Shown: in pieces, positions 14,960-59,652 of the stretch | Layout: every line of letters starts with the position of its first letter | How positions within the stretch are numbered: the stretch's first letter is position 1 | Assembly: GCA_964016885.1 (NCBI GenBank) | Contig: OZ024740.1 | Location: forward strand, 300,514,001-300,578,000 | Reading direction: 5' to 3' | Source: Eledone cirrhosa | Taxonomy: Eukaryota | DNA: 64,000 nt | Program-made: the position numbers and the translations under genes | Notes under the pieces: model-generated | Seen by the model: only the letters and a program-made list of their open reading frames with translations | Databases searched by the model: none | What the model was told of the DNA's origin: nothing

Positions 14960-14997
14960 CCTTTACCGGTTTCGCAGTTCTTCTGCTTTTCAAAAGG
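14960..14997 (-). ncRNA. Minimal type I hammerhead, U3-A8 core variant (family B)
   Basis: Reverse complement reads CCUU UUGAAAA GCAG AAGAA CUGC GAAA CCGG UA AAGG. Confidence 0.8.
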
Positions 14998-15067
14998 TGA
15001 GTTGAGATGGAGGGTCTGTGGTTTTTCTCACATGTGAGAAAATCCACAGACCCTCCATCTCAACTCA

Positions 15068-15105
15068 CCTTTTGAAAAGCAGAAGAACTGCGAAACCGGT
15101 AAAGG
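15068..15105 (+). ncRNA. Minimal type I hammerhead, U3-A8 core variant (family B)
   Basis: CCUU UUGAAAA GCAG AAGAA CUGC GAAA CCGG UA AAGG. Stem I 4 bp, stem II 4 bp, palindromic ACCGGU stem III, GUA triplet. Confidence 0.8.
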
Positions 15106-15480
15106 AACCAAATAAATATATATATTTAAAAAAAAAATAAGACTTCAGTTGCATTTTCGATTTCATCCCTTTTTCTTTATACTTCCACTCGTGTAGGACA
15201 CCTCGGTTATTTTTCATTTTGTAAAAACAAAAACAAAAAAAACCTCACTTTCTAATATATACATATATATATATATATATATATATATATATATATATAT
15301 ATATATATATATATATATATATATGCTATTATTATATTTATCATTGTTACTATATATATATATATATATACGAAAACACCATTCAGCATACAAGGTATGC
15401 AGTGGCAGACTGGTCATGTCGTCAGCTTGCCTTATGACAAGAGGGCCCATTGTTCACCCATGGTCCTTTATATATATATA

Positions 15481-16352
15481 CAGCGGCGGGTAAAATTTAC
15501 CTTCAAGGACAGCAATCAGAAACTAGAAGTGTGTTGATCCTCAAAAATGATAGGAAGAAAGAAAAATAAATATAGAAAATGGACGAAACAAGATGTCTGT
15601 ATGTGAGGAAACGACCGAAGCTATGTCCGTTCTATTCGACGCGGTTCATCTCTTAGGCATTAGAATTTCCGGTGATGTATACTGCATTTAAAATGTAAGT
15701 TGAATTTTCTCACTCTGTCTATCTTGTTCGATTTATTTTTTATTGTCTCCCTGTAAATGGTCAAGCCTGGTTTATCTTATCTTTGATGTACCGTCACCTG
15801 CCCCAAGCATTTTAACACGGCGCTATTCTCTTTTCATCACAGTGAAGTTAACTACCGCTAACAAACCGTTCCCAAGCCTAATTAAACAATGTATACTATC
15901 ATTACATATTATTCCGCATATGAATGTTCTGTTCGGTACACTTCCAGCAGATCGGGACCGCAGATCTGCTGCAGGAATCCGGGTATACTAAAATTCTTCC
16001 CCACACAAGACGTCTTCCTCACTGATTAACGAAAGTTAATCTGGCCAGCTGGGTTCAAATTTTAGTAATACGAACATAATTGGCCATTCAGTGAACGAGG
16101 ATATATATATATATATATATATATATATATATATATATATATATACAACTGAGAGATGACGCATGTCGAATAGACAGAACATACCATCGGTCGTTTCCTC
16201 ACTCACTGAATGGCCAATTAAGTTCGTATTACTAAAATTTGAACCCAGCTGGCCAGATTAACTTTCGTTAATCAGTGAGGAAGACGGCTTGTGTGAGGAA
16301 GAATGTTAGTATACCCGGATTCCTGCAGCAAATTCTGCGGTCCCGATCTGCA
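15481..16352. repeat. (TA)n-flanked repeat with inverted partial duplication
   Basis: Approx. 16203-16350 is the reverse complement of approx. 15948-16094. Approx. 16150-16202 is an inverted, diverged copy of approx. 15602-15652. Confidence 0.7.
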
Positions 16353-16484
16353 TATATATATATATATATATATATATATATATATATATATATATATTTA
16401 TATATATACCAATCATATCTCATTTTGTTTCACCCGTTTAGCTTGTTCGCTTTTTTTGGCTATGGTGGCTATGGTTTCTTAACC

Positions 16485-16812
16485 ATCGTCTCAAAGTGTA
16501 CGACCATTGTAACTTATGTTTATAGCCCTGCTATCCTCTTCATATGCATGGAGCGCTTGTCTGCATAATATAGAAGTTGCGTTTCGCTAATTTCTACCCG
16601 CCGAAATGCGATTCTCGCTAAATTTATATATATATATATATATATATATATATATATATATATATATATATAAATTTAGCGAGAATCGCATTTCGGCGGG
16701 TAGAAATTAGCGAAACGCAACTTCTATATTATGCAGACAAGCGCTCCATGCATATGAAGAGGATAGCAGGGCTATAAACATAAGTTACAATGGTCGTACA
16801 CTTTGAGACGAT
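16485..16812. repeat. Perfect ~140-bp inverted repeat centred on a (TA)n tract
   Basis: ATCGTCTCAAAG...CTCGCTAAATTTA (TA)n TAAATTTAGCGAG...CTTTGAGACGAT. Confidence 0.85.
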
Positions 16813-56386: not shown

Positions 56387-56569
56387 TGTTTCTACTTTTG
56401 GCACAAGACCAGCAATGACACAGTGCATTACTGGTACTTTATTTTATCGACCCCGTAAGGATGAAAGGCAAAGTAAACCTCGGCGGGATTTGAACTCAGA
56501 ATGGCAAGGACCGTAACTCTATGCGTCAAAGCTTGGCGTCCGATCCTCTATCGATACTGCCAATCCACC
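56387..56569 (-). mobile_element. Near full-length tRNA-derived SINE with 16-bp TSD
   Basis: A-box-like TGGCAGTATCGATAG and B box GAGTTCAAATCCC. GTTCAAATCATTTAAT at 56371-56386 and 56570-56585. Confidence 0.9.
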
Positions 56570-56586
56570 GTTCAAATCATTTAATA

Positions 56587-56631
56587 GCTGACAATGGTTT
56601 CTTCCAAACTTCCGTTCGGGGTCATCGGAGC
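56587..56631 (-). ncRNA. Minimal hammerhead, C4 variant (family J)
   Basis: GCU CCGAUGA CC CCGAAC GGAA GUUUGG AA GAAA CCAUUG UC AGC. The host insert has an inverted piece (56643-56685 vs 57798-57840). Confidence 0.62.
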
Positions 56632-58071
56632 ATTATCAATGTTTGTACATATAATTAACCTCCTATTCAACTGAACAATCATATTGATATATATATATAT
56701 ATATATTGATGTAGTGAGCAACAGATATTTACAGGGTGTACTGGATGCGACATATATTATACGAGAATTGTACAATAATTCAAATTAAAAGCACAGAGTG
56801 GAATTCATGCAACAGATAATACAAGAGAATAGTCTAATAATTAAAGAGTCATTGAGAAAGAAGCATTGAGAGAGGAATAGTACATTAGCAGTACATATGC
56901 AAGTGTGTAGAAAGTGCACATGTGGTAGCCATATATATGAGAAGGAAATAAGCAAAGGTATTATGCATATATCGATAAATAAATACTGTATGGTAAGCAA
57001 ATATGTTAATGCATTAAAATCTATGGCAGGCGTAATGTGTGCATAGTGTTCGAATTTGTGTGTGTTGACAAAAACAAATTTACTACAGTCCTTTCCATTA
57101 CATATGTTGTATTATATTTTAGTTAATATTTATATTTAATGTTTTAAGTTAGTTAAAGCAATGGATTGTAAATTAGTCTTATTGTATTCTTATTCATGGA
57201 TTATAGTTGTTCAACTGGTAGTTTTTCCAACGGTTTAATTTCCGGAAGTGAGTATGTGATCGAAGATTAAGGGGAGCTAATGCATAAGAGGAGGTAACTA
57301 GCTAATTACATTCAATTATTTAAATTCTTTCCTCTAATACACATTATAGTGTGATACAAGTGAATCTCTATTACATAATTTTATATATTTATACTTAATT
57401 TTAAATACAGTGTATTTTCCTATAATACAATAAAGGTCTCAATATATCGTTATCTATTCATTACTTGACAAGATATATGTTATGGAACAATTGTATAGCT
57501 GTTTACATGTCCAAGTAGATATATCACATGTGTAATAATATACAGTATTGTATATACAATGCTATTACTTTTTATATTTAATTATGAATGTATATATACC
57601 TTATTATTATTATATTGTGTTAAAAGTAAATCCCTTATATACATGCTATTAATTTAAATATTTAATTATAAATGTATATATAATTTATTATTACCTATTA
57701 CATTAAATGTCTCTACATATTATATATCAATTACTGTATATAATATAATTAAGCTATAGTAGTTATATCAAAAGGTGGTAACTTTATTTATGTATCTATA
57801 TGATTGTTCAGTTGAATAGGAGGTTAATTATATGTACAAATATGTATCAGAAAGAGATCGGCATATGAAATTGTATATATTTAAACCAAGAATTAAATAT
57901 ATATTTACCTCTATGGTCATGTATCGATGGCTAATACTTTTGTAATACAAGTTCATTTCAGTAACAGAACTCTAATCTCCTTTGCGTTCTCCCTCTATCT
58001 TTCTCCCTCCCATCTCTCTCTCTCTCTCTCCCTCTCTCTCTCTCTCTCTCTCTCTCTCTCTCTCTCTCTCT

Positions 58072-58168
58072 CTCTGTCTATCTCTCTCTCTCTGGTACTT
58101 TATTTTATCGACCCTATAAGGATGAAAGGCAAAGTTAACCTCGGCGGGATTTGAACTCAGACCGCAAA
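58072..58168 (-). mobile_element. SINE fragment
   Basis: CTGGTACTTTATTTTATCGACCC...GGATGAAAGGCAAAGTTAACCTCGGCGGGATTTGAACTCAG (approx. 58092-58160), adjoining a (TC)n tract. Confidence 0.8.
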
Positions 58169-59504
58169 TAATGATCAAGGGTCGATTATATGCCTCGTCT
58201 TTAAAAACAGCTCAAGATAGAATTCAGAGAATAAAATCGAGCCTTGATCATTATAAGAAAGTTTTCTTATATATATATATATATATATATACACACACGC
58301 AGGCAAACACACACACACACACATACACACACACACACACATATATATATATACACTCACACACACGCACACACGCACGCACACACACACACATACATAT
58401 ATATATTTATATATATATATATATATATATATATATATATATATATATATATATATATGTATGTGTGTGTGTGTGTGTGTGTGTGTGTGTATGATTTTTC
58501 GATACTCGATCTTTCTAATATTTTTAACTCTGGACTTAGCTATCCACCAGTTAATTTTATTGCTCATTTTTTGTCGATTCTATTGAGTGATGAATAGCTT
58601 TTGTTTTATTATAACATGTCTATTGAGCACTCTAATTCGATATGTGTATTTCCACATTCACTCGAATTGTTTTCGCGGATATAGGGGTCATCTCCCTTGT
58701 CTAATGCCATGTGCGTTTCTCACTGGTAGTTGGCTCCTCTGCCGCCAGGAAAAAACTCGTTGAGAAAGTAAACCTCCGTTCCGCTTGCTCTAGTAGGCTT
58801 TTATATTTATATGTGAGCTGATAGAGTACAGTCTAAGGATTTACAGAAACCCATGAAGCTAGATTTAACACCTGTCTAGTGGGTCCGGGTATGATTTTAC
58901 ATTCATTTAAATTATTGACGTATTGTTTTATTGATATTTTTTATCTGTTTGTCCCGAATCTTCCTCTATCGATTTTAAATCGTATGGTTGATTGTAGACT
59001 TGTTCTATATGTGACGGTATTTTAACGATAGTTATAGCTCTGATTCATCTGAATTATTGAGCCCTCTGCCGCTCATGTCGAATTTCGTTTATCGTGAAAT
59101 TGTGCGCCGATTTTTCGATACTCGATCTTTCTAATATATATATATATATATATATATGTATTATATATATATATATATATATATATATATTCATATTTAT
59201 AAGTAAAATGTTTTAATATGTCGCACAAATGGAAAAATGTAGGACAAAGTTGAAAATATTAATACAATTAGAGATTTTAAGAACGTTTATTTACAATAAT
59301 TTACAACTCTACCATTTTCACAAGTTTCATGTTTTTCAAACGTTAAGAGAGTTGGTGAGATGCATGGCTATGCCAACTGGTAAATTCAATTAGATGTATG
59401 TGTGTATTTTCAAAAACGTACTAGAAAAGCCGTACATCAATATGGTGCCTCACTTTGTTTTAGGGCACCGCCGAAATAGGATCTCGGTAAAATTATATAT
59501 ATAT

Positions 59505-59652
59505 ATAAAGAAAAAGAGACGAAATCGAAAATGCAACTGGAGTCTTATTTTTTTTTAAAATATATATATTTATTTGGTTCCTTTACCGGTTTCGCAGTTC
59601 GTCTGCTTTTCAAAAGGTGAGTTGAGATGGAGGGTCTGTGGTTTTTCTCACA
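59505..59652 (-). mobile_element. Single arm of family B with intact U3-A8 hammerhead (59580-59617)
   Basis: Same two end points as the left arms of the foldbacks. Confidence 0.82.

What the first reader, a model, noticed from the sequence alone, without database searches (positions are those of the whole stretch)
14960..59617. Compensatory U3-A8 catalytic core shared by at least four unrelated HHR families
Seen: UUGAGAA and UUGAAAA (family A, 25061 and approx. 41495-41501), UUGAAAA (family B), UUGAUAA (family C) and decayed UUUAAAA (34577) replace CUGANGA. Among the intact cores, position 7, the known free position, is the one that varies. Established: C3-G8 is a tertiary Watson-Crick pair in the active hammerhead and U3-A8 swaps retain some activity. 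The double change in several families is strong internal evidence that these are selected ribozymes rather than chance folds. It may reflect AT pressure or tuning of cleavage rate (inference).
Basis: partly seen in the sequence, partly recalled or inferred. Interest (0 to 1): 0.75.

Follow-up and report, generated by a model that had tools for sequence, protein, structure and literature searches.

The report
Hammerhead ribozymes with swapped core pair
Several families of jumping-gene repeats in this animal genome carry hammerhead ribozyme motifs in which two core bases that pair with each other have both changed (C-G to U-A); this is a real covariation that likely keeps the ribozyme working, and the same swap has been reported before in another animal.

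Summary
The window holds 12 type-I hammerhead (HHR) motifs from five repeat families (A, A', B, C, F34) whose core reads UUGANAA instead of CUGANGA. All named coordinates check out.

The bare heptamer is at chance: 83 found, about 84 expected. The full three-helix motif is not. In a random 0.994 Mb of the genome, only two of the 16 base combinations at positions 3 and 8 exceed shuffled controls. C-G gave 44 hits against 0.45 expected. U-A gave 12 against 3.2.

A sister pair of families, 82.6% identical over 293 nt, differs by exactly this double change. Across 68 distinct copies the pair reads U-A in 36, C-G in 31, other in 1, with no one-sided change.

The carriers are Hydra-clade Penelope-like retroelements and short derivatives. 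They sit in (TA)n microsatellites as inverted or tandem copies.

"Unrelated families" is overstated, because all look PLE-derived and one origin is not excluded. Genome-wide AT pressure is unlikely, because canonical cores outnumber the variant about 4:1 in the same genome.

The swap is in print for Schistosoma PLEs (Cervera and de la Peña 2014). This is therefore a new member of a known kind. Catalytic activity was not tested.

The parts
15068..15105 (+). Family B hammerhead motif. Layout: CCUU / UUGAAAA / GCAG-AAGAA-CUGC / GAAA / CCGG / UA, then AAGG. It is the right arm of a palindrome.
   Evidence: Descriptor hit. The same motif is present in 40 arms of 30 genome loci.
14960..14997 (-). 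Family B hammerhead motif, left arm of the same head-to-head inverted pair.
59580..59617 (-). Family B hammerhead motif, single arm.
55771..55805 (+). Family B hammerhead motif, variant with a shorter loop 2.
30679..30727 (+). Decayed family B copy (CCGG changed to UCGG, helix I 3 bp).
22413..22506 (-). Family A hammerhead motif. Layout: ACCCC / UUGAGAA / helix II with a 48-nt insert / GAAA / helix III ACGGCU-AGCCGU / C17, then GGGGU.
   Evidence: The identical motif lies about 1.08-1.12 kb 3' of the reading frame in 13 copies.
25056..25149 (+). Family A hammerhead motif in the twin arm. Helix I carries one mismatch (GGUGU).
   Evidence: Inverted repeat at 99% identity.
22398..25164 (.). Head-to-head inverted pair of 5'-truncated family A elements. 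3' ends point outward into (TA)n, and one end carries a tail.
   Evidence: Arms I1, I2, I6 and I7. Reading-frame remnant at 23579-24212(-), 88-94% identical to P0001.
41494..41511 (-). Family A' copy holding only the helix I 5' strand and UUGAAAA. The 3' half of the motif is missing in this copy.
   Evidence: Reading-frame remnant at 42284-42900(-).
25707..25795 (-). Family C hammerhead motif (UUGAUAA) inside a 319-nt tandem repeat. Helix I is degraded in this copy.
25388..25476 (-). Family C hammerhead motif, next tandem unit. Helices III and I are degraded.
   Evidence: row L091:1199-1287.
26046..26134 (+). Family C motif in an inverted unit. The core is UCGAUAA (U4 to C).
34573..34674 (+). 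Family F34 hammerhead motif. This copy reads UUUAAAA (G5 to U). It is Hydra-type, with an unpaired U on each side of helix II.
   Evidence: Hydra-like reading-frame remnant at 33154-33942(+).
28646..28702 (+). Canonical-core (CUGAUGA) hammerhead of family D, listed for contrast.
   Evidence: Helix II covaries among copies.
32702..32744 (-). Canonical-core (CUGACGA) Hydra-type hammerhead, listed for contrast.

Best explanation
The window holds twelve type-I hammerhead motifs from five repeat families whose core reads UUGANAA instead of CUGANGA, carried by Hydra-clade Penelope-like retroelements and their short derivatives inserted in (TA)n; the U3-A8 pair likely takes the place of the C3-G8 tertiary pair, and the motifs are predicted to self-cleave as dimers.

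Shown:
- All other core positions are kept (U4 G5 A6, A9, G12 A13 A14, A15.1-U16.1, non-G at 17) around three helices whose sequences differ between families.
- Positions 3 and 8 covary and do not vary singly.
- Family A encodes a reverse transcriptase followed by a C-terminal GIY-YIG nuclease, with the Hydra-clade DKT and CxCX5C marks. Its hammerhead lies about 1.1 kb 3' of the reading frame.
- Insertions are inverted or tandem, 5'-truncated, in (TA)n, with a tail at one end.

Inferred:
- Transcripts through tandem or paired copies would pair through the palindromic helix III, forming double hammerheads that cut after H17 (GUC or GUA). This would trim read-through or multimeric element RNA, as proposed for other PLEs and retrozymes.
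- U-A would hold nucleotide 8, whose 2'-OH is the proposed general acid, in place as C-G does, possibly at a lower rate.
For: 1. Structure. The descriptor finds complete motifs for A, B and C in the window and for further U3-A8 families in other DNA: H, C2, C3, C4 and J.

2. Enrichment. In a random 0.994 Mb (100 pieces):
- Loose descriptor: C-G 59 against 1.5 shuffled mean. U-A 19 against 10.1, maximum 16 in 20 shuffles.
- Strict descriptor: C-G 44 against 0.45. U-A 12 against 3.2, maximum 8.
- The other 14 combinations are at chance. In the loose scan, U-G was 4 against 4.95 and C-A was 5 against 5.15.

3. Sister families. C (UUGAUAA) and Cc (CUGAUGA) are 82.6% identical over 293 nt, and both are multi-copy. 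On alignment A1 of 69 rows, the counts are:
- the 3-8 pair is U-A in 36, C-G in 31 and other in 1, with 0 one-sided changes
- 93.6% of cells are paired, against 88.2% when shuffled and 28-42% when the partner is slid
- 13 pairs show changes on both sides.

4. Folding. The family H monomer's minimum-energy fold is the three-way junction. B, C and A form double hammerheads as dimers, each with lower energy than two monomers.

5. Independent model. A family C copy aligns to Rfam Hammerhead_HH9 at 26.5 bits, E = 6e-5. The only mismatches in the CUGAUGA box are at positions 3 and 8.

6. Carrier. The family A reading frame P0001 shows reverse-transcriptase motifs, DKT, CNCPDRSIC (CxCX5C) and GIY-YIG, matching the Hydra-clade description (PMC8557442, section 11). 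Its anatomy matches the same paper: inverted 5'-truncated copies, one-sided tail and (TA)n target (passages).

7. Recent activity. The best-scoring family A copies are 99% identical and the top-scoring B copies are 97-100% identical. Elements carrying the variant therefore spread recently.
Against: - No cleavage or expression data.
- No Rfam hammerhead model reaches its gathering score on these motifs.
- Published PLE minimal hammerheads cleave poorly in vitro even as dimers (PMC4209133).
- Naiad PLEs thrive without canonical hammerheads (PMC8557442). Spread of the element therefore does not prove the ribozyme works.
- The C/Cc contrast counts many copies but is probably one evolutionary event.
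- In the loose scan, about 10 of the 19 U-A hits are expected by chance.
- Family A and A' helix II needs a bulge or a mismatch.
- Monomer folds of A, B and C are not more stable than shuffles in the hammerhead shape. Their z-scores are weak or come from alternative folds.
- Within palindromic pairs, a through-transcript would fold as one long hairpin rather than as a hammerhead.
Confidence: 0.8

Rival explanations
1. The U3-A8 motifs are disabled or dispensable relics. The double change would be tolerated because the ribozyme is not needed for these elements to spread, so it says nothing about selection for catalysis.
For: [quoted passage not shown]
- PLE minimal hammerheads show low activity in vitro (PMC4209133).
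- Many individual copies here are visibly decayed.
Against: - A neutral core would be expected to show one-sided changes as lineages. None is seen: 0 of 68 distinct copies, and U-G and C-A are at chance.
- The rest of the core and all three helices are kept in lineages whose proteins are only 30-35% identical, A against F34.
- Helices covary between subfamilies C, C2, C3, C4 and Cc.
Confidence: 0.15
2. The motifs are chance matches favoured by an AT-rich genome, in which TTGANAA is about four times as common as CTGANGA.
For: - The heptamer alone is at chance.
- About half of the loose-descriptor U-A hits in the random sample are expected by chance.
Against: - 6 hits against 0.69 expected in the window, and 12 against 3.2 under the strict descriptor.
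- By my reading of the rows, 11 of those 12 strict hits fall in recognisable multi-copy families.
- Compensatory changes occur in all helices.
- A Hammerhead_HH9 model matches at E = 6e-5.
- The motifs hold a fixed place 3' of PLE reading frames.
Confidence: 0.02
3. The relevant RNA product of the palindromic copies (family B, the family A pair) is a long hairpin that feeds small-RNA pathways. On this view the hammerhead-like core is incidental there.
For: The family B palindrome scores as a microRNA-like hairpin, for example mir-548 at 64 bits against a gathering score of 90. The arms are near-perfect complements.
Against: - All microRNA scores are below gathering.
- The same motif occurs in single arms (59580-59617) and in tandem units (family C).
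- Inverted 5'-truncated pairs are the usual PLE insertion form (PMC8557442).
- This does not explain the 3-8 covariation.
Confidence: 0.03

Closest known systems
Minimal hammerheads of Penelope-like elements, including the U3-A8 variant of Schistosoma mansoni Cercyon elements (Cervera and de la Peña 2014, PMC4209133; abstract and passages read)
   Same: - Type-I motif in PLE repeats.
- Short or palindromic helix III that implies dimers.
- Paired copies on opposite strands.
- The same U3-A8 for C3-G8 covariation, reported with about 1,300 descriptor hits.
- High diversity of families within one genome.
   Different: - A different host: a 3.0-Gb genome against the much smaller S. mansoni genome (the latter size recalled, not from a call).
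- The carriers here are Hydra-clade elements and their derivatives.
- Here a canonical and a variant sister family can be aligned copy by copy.
- Several motifs here have a long helix II insert (A, A', F34, H) or a long distal helix I (C).
Hydra clade of C-terminal-endonuclease PLEs (Craig et al. 2021, PMC8557442; sections and supplementary files S1 and S2 read in part)
   Same: - Elements under 3 kb with a single reading frame.
- DKT motif, CxCX5C linker and C-terminal GIY-YIG.
- (TA)n target, inverted or tandem insertions and a one-sided tail.
- Hammerhead near the 3' end.
- Unpaired U on both sides of helix II (family F34).
   Different: The 20 hammerhead rows of File S2 that I saw (11 of them Hydra-clade), out of 49 'ctga' occurrences in the supplementary file, all have a ctga.ga core. 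None of the 10 ttga.aa word matches lay in the core column. Families A, A' and F34 here carry UUGANAA instead.
Metazoan non-LTR retrozymes (Cervera and de la Peña 2020, PMC7229834; passages read)
   Same: Family C and its canonical sister Cc are about 319-nt tandem units, each with one type-I hammerhead. That size lies within the 170-400-nt range described. Loop 2 resembles the classical animal type-I/HH9 loop.
   Different: The core is U3-A8 in C. Circular RNA was not tested. Copies also occur inverted.
Rfam Hammerhead_1 (RF00163) and Hammerhead_HH9 (RF02275)
   Same: The genome has canonical members: 19 of the 74 scored candidates pass the RF00163 gathering score. Family C aligns to HH9 along its whole length.
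   Different: The U3-A8 motifs score below gathering (26.5 against 52 bits) or are not reported at all.

Membership tests
Hammerhead ribozyme, type I | Three helices around the core, open at helix I. Order: helix I 5' strand, box 3-9, helix II hairpin, G12 A13 A14, helix III hairpin, H17, helix I 3' strand. | tested here: met
   Descriptor hits. 93.6% of cells paired on 69 aligned copies. Predicted folds.
Hammerhead ribozyme, type I | Invariant core bases U4 G5 A6, A9, G12 A13 A14, A15.1-U16.1, and non-G at position 17. | tested here: met
   Present in the majority form of A, A', B, C, F34 and H. Individual copies carry decay mutations.
Hammerhead ribozyme, type I | C at position 3 and G at position 8. 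| tested here: not met
   These positions are U3 and A8 in all five window families. The two positions can still form a Watson-Crick pair, and they covary with C-G in the sister family.
Hammerhead ribozyme, type I | Score at or above the curated Rfam threshold. | tested here: not met
   0 matches at gathering in the window. Best result is HH9 at 26.5 bits against 52. No match for family B.
Hammerhead ribozyme, type I | Site-specific self-cleavage after position 17. | not testable with these tools
   No wet assay is available.
Hydra-clade Penelope-like element (families A, A', F34) | Reverse transcriptase followed by a C-terminal GIY-YIG endonuclease in one reading frame, in an element under 3 kb. 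| tested here: met
   Family A: the 635-aa open frame P0001 has RT motifs and GIY-YIG read by eye, and copies are about 2.5-2.7 kb. Pfam gave no hit. For A' and F34, only partial frames were seen.
Hydra-clade Penelope-like element (families A, A', F34) | DKT in place of DKG, and a CxCX5C linker before the endonuclease. | tested here: met
   HSDKTG and CNCPDRSIC in P0001, set against the description in PMC8557442, section 11. The RWK motif and loss of CCHH were not checked, because the copies held are 5'-truncated.
Hydra-clade Penelope-like element (families A, A', F34) | Insertion into (TA)n with inverted or tandem 5'-truncated copies and a tail at one end. | tested here: met
Hydra-clade Penelope-like element (families A, A', F34) | Placement inside the Hydra clade on a reverse-transcriptase tree that includes reference families. 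| not tested
   No reference proteins were used. Only this genome's own copies were put on a tree.
Non-LTR retrozyme (family C) | Short tandem units, each with one type-I hammerhead. | tested here: met
   319-nt spacing with three units in the window. Multiple units per locus elsewhere.
Non-LTR retrozyme (family C) | Expressed as small circular RNA. | not testable with these tools

The most novel reading that the evidence does not exclude
U3-A8 hammerheads are a standing, transposition-competent alternative core. They make up roughly one fifth of the hammerhead motifs in a random 1 Mb of this genome. Extrapolating that density (my arithmetic) gives on the order of 10^5 motifs genome-wide. They occur in recently active Hydra-clade PLEs.

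The switch between C3-G8 and U3-A8 has happened inside a living lineage (C against Cc), together with a G-C to A-U switch at 10.1-11.1. This hints at coupling between the tertiary pair and the first pair of helix II.

These cores escape both CUGANGA descriptors and Rfam thresholds. Hammerhead censuses, and calls that some PLE clades lack hammerheads, may therefore be undercounts.
Probability: 0.35. Interest if true: 0.5.

Novelty: new member of a known kind. Interest (0 to 1): 0.35.

Why it matters
**Natural support for the 3-8 pair.** The C3-G8 pair was only understood once the full-length hammerhead structure was solved. Natural covariation at this pair is the in-vivo counterpart of the mutational rescue experiments (those experiments are recalled, not read here).

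**A ready-made test pair.** This genome offers a clean natural comparison: two sister repeat families, each with thousands of first-look candidate copies, that differ by the double change. It also has young, recently mobile elements with the variant core. That makes the effect of U3-A8 on cleavage and ligation rate directly testable with natural sequences.

**A gap in standard searches.** Searches based on CUGANGA descriptors or Rfam thresholds miss roughly a fifth of this genome's hammerheads.

**Limit on novelty.** The swap was already described in Schistosoma PLEs, so the finding extends known biology rather than changing it.

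Tried and rejected
- **Rfam on the whole window.** Nothing at gathering. At E up to 10, the 150 rows shown are microRNA-like hits on (TA)n and palindromes with no hammerhead; 154 lower-scoring rows were not shown.
- **Pfam on the ten longest window frames and on the family A frame.** No hits. The RT and endonuclease reading rests on motifs seen by eye and on likeness to the Hydra proteins printed in the paper's supplement.
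- **Earlier notes of this scan.** None for this genome.
- **Naiad idea.** I considered that these might be Naiad PLEs, which are reported to lack canonical hammerheads. I rejected this for family A because the endonuclease is C-terminal with Hydra marks.
- **Mapping the core state on a protein tree** (17 rows chosen by me from 27 hits). There are three clades: A/A', F34 and D-type. A single origin of U3-A8 is not rejected (AU p = 0.209). Four rows had no assignable hammerhead. The number of origins stays open.
- **First search 3' of the reading frames.** A 900-nt reach found nothing because the 3' untranslated part is about 1.1 kb. It was repeated with 2,200 nt.
- **Descriptor blind spots.** Contiguous-stem rules miss A' (mismatch in helix II), and spans over 70 nt missed F34 until they were widened.
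- **Autonomous partners of families B, C and H.** Not found. Longer B copies hold about 330-nt internal repeats but no reading frame.
- **Literature searches**. 'U3-A8' occurs in one paper of the library. The biochemical rescue papers for C3U/G8A were not found there and are cited from memory only.

Full report
**1. What is at the named places**

Reading the window confirms each site.
- UUGAGAA lies at 25061-25067 (+). Its mirror copy is at 22501-22495 (-).
- UUGAAAA lies at 41500-41494 (-).
- UUUAAAA lies at 34577-34583 (+).
- The ends of the reported span, 14960 and 59617, are the outer ends of two family B motifs.

The heptamer by itself means nothing. TTGANAA occurs 83 times on the two strands, against about 84 expected from the base frequencies printed in the same call (my arithmetic). 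No Rfam family reaches its gathering score in the window.

**2. Complete hammerhead motifs**

I wrote a type-I descriptor. It requires at least 4 bp of helix I, NUGANNA, at least 3 bp of helix II, GAAA, A15.1 to U16.1 closing helix III, a non-G at position 17, and then the 3' strand of helix I.

With U at position 3 and A at position 8 it finds 6 motifs in the window. The mean in 100 block shuffles is 0.69, and no shuffle reaches 6. A wider scan and direct pattern look-ups raise the inventory to 12 copies from five families:
- **B:** 15068-15105(+), 14960-14997(-), 59580-59617(-), 55771-55805(+), and a decayed copy at 30679-30727(+).
- **A:** 22413-22506(-) and 25056-25149(+).
- **A':** 41494-41511(-), 5' half only.
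- **C:** 25707-25795(-), 25388-25476(-), and 26046-26134(+) with U4 changed to C.
- **F34:** 34573-34674(+), with G5 changed to U.

The two 'decayed' calls are right. 21 of the 22 rows shown for F34 read UUGAAAA, and the window's copy is the exception. Other A' copies carry the whole motif: ACCCC / UUGAAAA / helix II / GAAA / helix III / GUC, then GGGGU.

**3. The carriers are Penelope-like elements**

*Family A.*
- The two copies are the arms of a 99% inverted repeat, 22398-23343 against 24197-25164. Their 3' ends point outward into (TA)n.
- Genome copies are 5'-truncated to varying lengths and often sit head to head.
- Longer copies hold a 635-aa open frame (P0001). [quoted passage not shown]
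- Pfam does not recognise it. The DKT motif, the CxCX5C linker, the size under 3 kb and the (TA)n target are nevertheless the published marks of the Hydra clade (PMC8557442, section 11). The frame visibly resembles the Hydra proteins printed in that paper's supplement.
- The hammerhead lies about 1.08-1.12 kb 3' of the frame in 13 copies.

*Families A' and F34.* F34 motifs lie 560-1020 nt 3' of a frame that is 30-35% identical to A. A' lies 3' of a frame that is 69-86% identical.

*Family B.* Copies are head-to-head arms ending in (TA)n. One side carries an extra tail of about 75 nt. This is the PLE insertion anatomy described in the same paper.

*Family C.* It sits in about 319-nt tandem units, like animal non-LTR retrozymes (PMC7229834).

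*Abundance.* Hydra-like frames are common. Pieces occur in 11 of 100 random 10-kb stretches and at five places in the window.

**4. Do positions 3 and 8 covary?**

*Random sample.* I drew 100 random 10-kb pieces (0.994 Mb after removing one overlap) and ran the descriptor with all 16 combinations at positions 3 and 8.

| Descriptor | C-G observed / shuffled mean | U-A observed / shuffled mean | Maximum U-A in 20 shuffles |
|---|---|---|---|
| Loose | 59 / 1.5 | 19 / 10.1 | 16 |
| Strict: helix I at least 4 bp, II at least 4, III at least 2 | 44 / 0.45 | 12 / 3.2 | 8 |

The other 14 combinations are at or below chance in the loose scan (U-G 4 against 4.95, C-A 5 against 5.15) and no higher than 5 in the strict scan.

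By my reading of the strict U-A rows, 11 of the 12 fall in recognisable families: B, three C-like subfamilies, H and J. About half of the loose U-A hits are therefore noise, but the excess is real. It amounts to roughly one variant motif for every four or five canonical ones.

The genome also has classical hammerheads: 19 of the 74 scored candidates pass the RF00163 gathering score. Many canonical families show helix covariation. Some lie 3' of other Hydra-like frames. Genome-wide AT pressure therefore does not explain the variant.

*A switch inside one lineage.* A canonical-core family, Cc, is 82.6% identical to family C over 293 nt and is itself multi-copy. I aligned 69 copies of C, its subfamilies and Cc and counted a structure that I specified, with the 3-8 pair written as a pseudoknot bracket.

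| Measure (68 distinct rows) | Result |
|---|---|
| 3-8 pair | U-A 36, C-G 31, other 1, one-sided changes 0 |
| 10.1-11.1 pair | G-C 36, A-U 30 |
| Cells paired | 93.6%, against 88.2% shuffled and 28-42% with the partner slid |
| Pairs changed on both sides | 13, against 5.9 shuffled |

These counts are copies, not events. The 3-8 contrast is most simply one double substitution between two lineages.

**5. Folding and an independent model**

ViennaRNA gives the three-way junction as the minimum-energy fold of a family H monomer. For B, C and A it gives a double hammerhead, in which two copies pair through the palindromic helix III. Dimer energies are below twice the monomer energy: -90.9 against -80.2 for C, -22.5 against -15.0 for B, and -63.7 against -51.4 for A.

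Monomer folds of A, B and C do not favour the hammerhead shape.

A family C copy aligns end to end with Rfam Hammerhead_HH9 at 26.5 bits (gathering score 52), E = 6e-5. The only mismatches in the CUGAUGA box are at positions 3 and 8, and loop 2 is identical. Family B gives no hammerhead match, because its palindrome draws microRNA-like hits instead.

**6. How it most likely works**

*Shown:* the anatomy, the covariation, the carriers, and recent spread. The best-scoring family A copies are 99% identical and the top-scoring B copies are 97-100% identical.

*Inferred:*
- Element transcripts that contain two motifs would form double hammerheads and cut after C17 or A17. Such transcripts could come from tandem units, partial tandems or neighbouring copies.
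- This would trim multimeric or read-through RNA, as proposed for PLEs (PMC4209133) and retrozymes (PMC7229834).
- The 2'-OH of nucleotide 8 is the proposed general acid (PMC6155905). A U3-A8 Watson-Crick pair would position that ribose as C3-G8 does.
- That C3U/G8A double mutants keep part of the activity is my recollection of the biochemical literature. I did not find those papers in the library.

**7. Against, and open**

- Published PLE minimal hammerheads cleave weakly in vitro.
- Naiad PLEs spread without canonical hammerheads, so element success does not prove ribozyme function.
- Whether U3-A8 arose once or several times is open. On a tree of the C-terminal 239 aa, A/A', F34 and the canonical D-type form three clades, and a single origin is not rejected (AU p = 0.209).
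- 'Unrelated families' is therefore too strong. A and A' are close. A, A' and F34 are all Hydra-type. B shares only one 40-nt stretch, 90% identical, with Cc. All insert into (TA)n.

**8. Novelty**

The library holds one paper with 'U3-A8'. Cervera and de la Peña 2014 found this covariation in S. mansoni Cercyon PLEs, with about 1,300 descriptor hits.

The Hydra-clade paper lists hammerheads with ctga.ga cores only, in the 20 rows I saw out of 49 'ctga' occurrences in the supplementary file. None of the 10 ttga.aa word matches fell in the core column.

The phenomenon is therefore known. What is added here:
- a new host
- the Hydra clade and its derivatives as carriers
- a copy-by-copy sister-family contrast
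- a rough frequency of about one motif in five.

I rate it a new member of a known kind, with interest 0.35.

Noticed in passing
window 28646-28702(+), 46021-46094(-), 55103-55189(+), 32702-32744(-), 34967-35022(-); 20148-20213(-) and 20352-20417(+): At least five canonical-core (CUGANGA) hammerhead families also lie in the window. One of them, family D, appears as a decayed pair (A3) inside a 175-nt inverted repeat at 20099-20466. Variant and canonical motifs are therefore intermixed at kilobase scale.
   Followed up: partly
alignment A1, columns 36/49 (families C and Cc): The first pair of helix II (10.1-11.1) switches together with the 3-8 pair. It is G-C in the U3-A8 copies (36) and A-U in the C3-G8 copies (30). 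This may be coupling or just shared descent.
   Followed up: no
window 14957-15112 and 16557-16740: Near-perfect palindromes centred on or next to (TA)n score as microRNA-like hairpins below gathering: mir-548 at 64 bits and MIR4208 at 87 bits. They are inverted retroelement insertions and could yield long hairpin RNA if transcribed.
   Followed up: partly
window 10162-12572: A GC-rich block (47-54% GC against about 34% around it) holds three overlapping open frames of 190-329 aa on the + strand. They have no Pfam match.
   Followed up: no
G000 contigs C1-C4 versus the rest: Four contigs of 379-443 Mb stand beside others of about 46-135 Mb in a 3.0-Gb assembly. This is a markedly bimodal set of chromosome sizes.
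   Followed up: no
L134:869 region (-), L205:9162 region (-) and L208:6620 (+), in the random sample: Further U3-A8 hammerhead families not present in the window.
- J has a 10-bp helix I, a 9-bp helix III and Hydra-type unpaired Us.
- H has GUCCC / UUGAUAA / a 42-nt helix II insert / the palindromic helix III ACUGUCGACAGU.
   Followed up: partly
L219, L014, L004 (longer family B copies): Family B elements longer than the 76-nt arm contain internal tandem repeats of about 330 nt, 81-84% identical to each other. No intact hammerhead was found by the descriptor, and no reading frame was found.
   Followed up: partly
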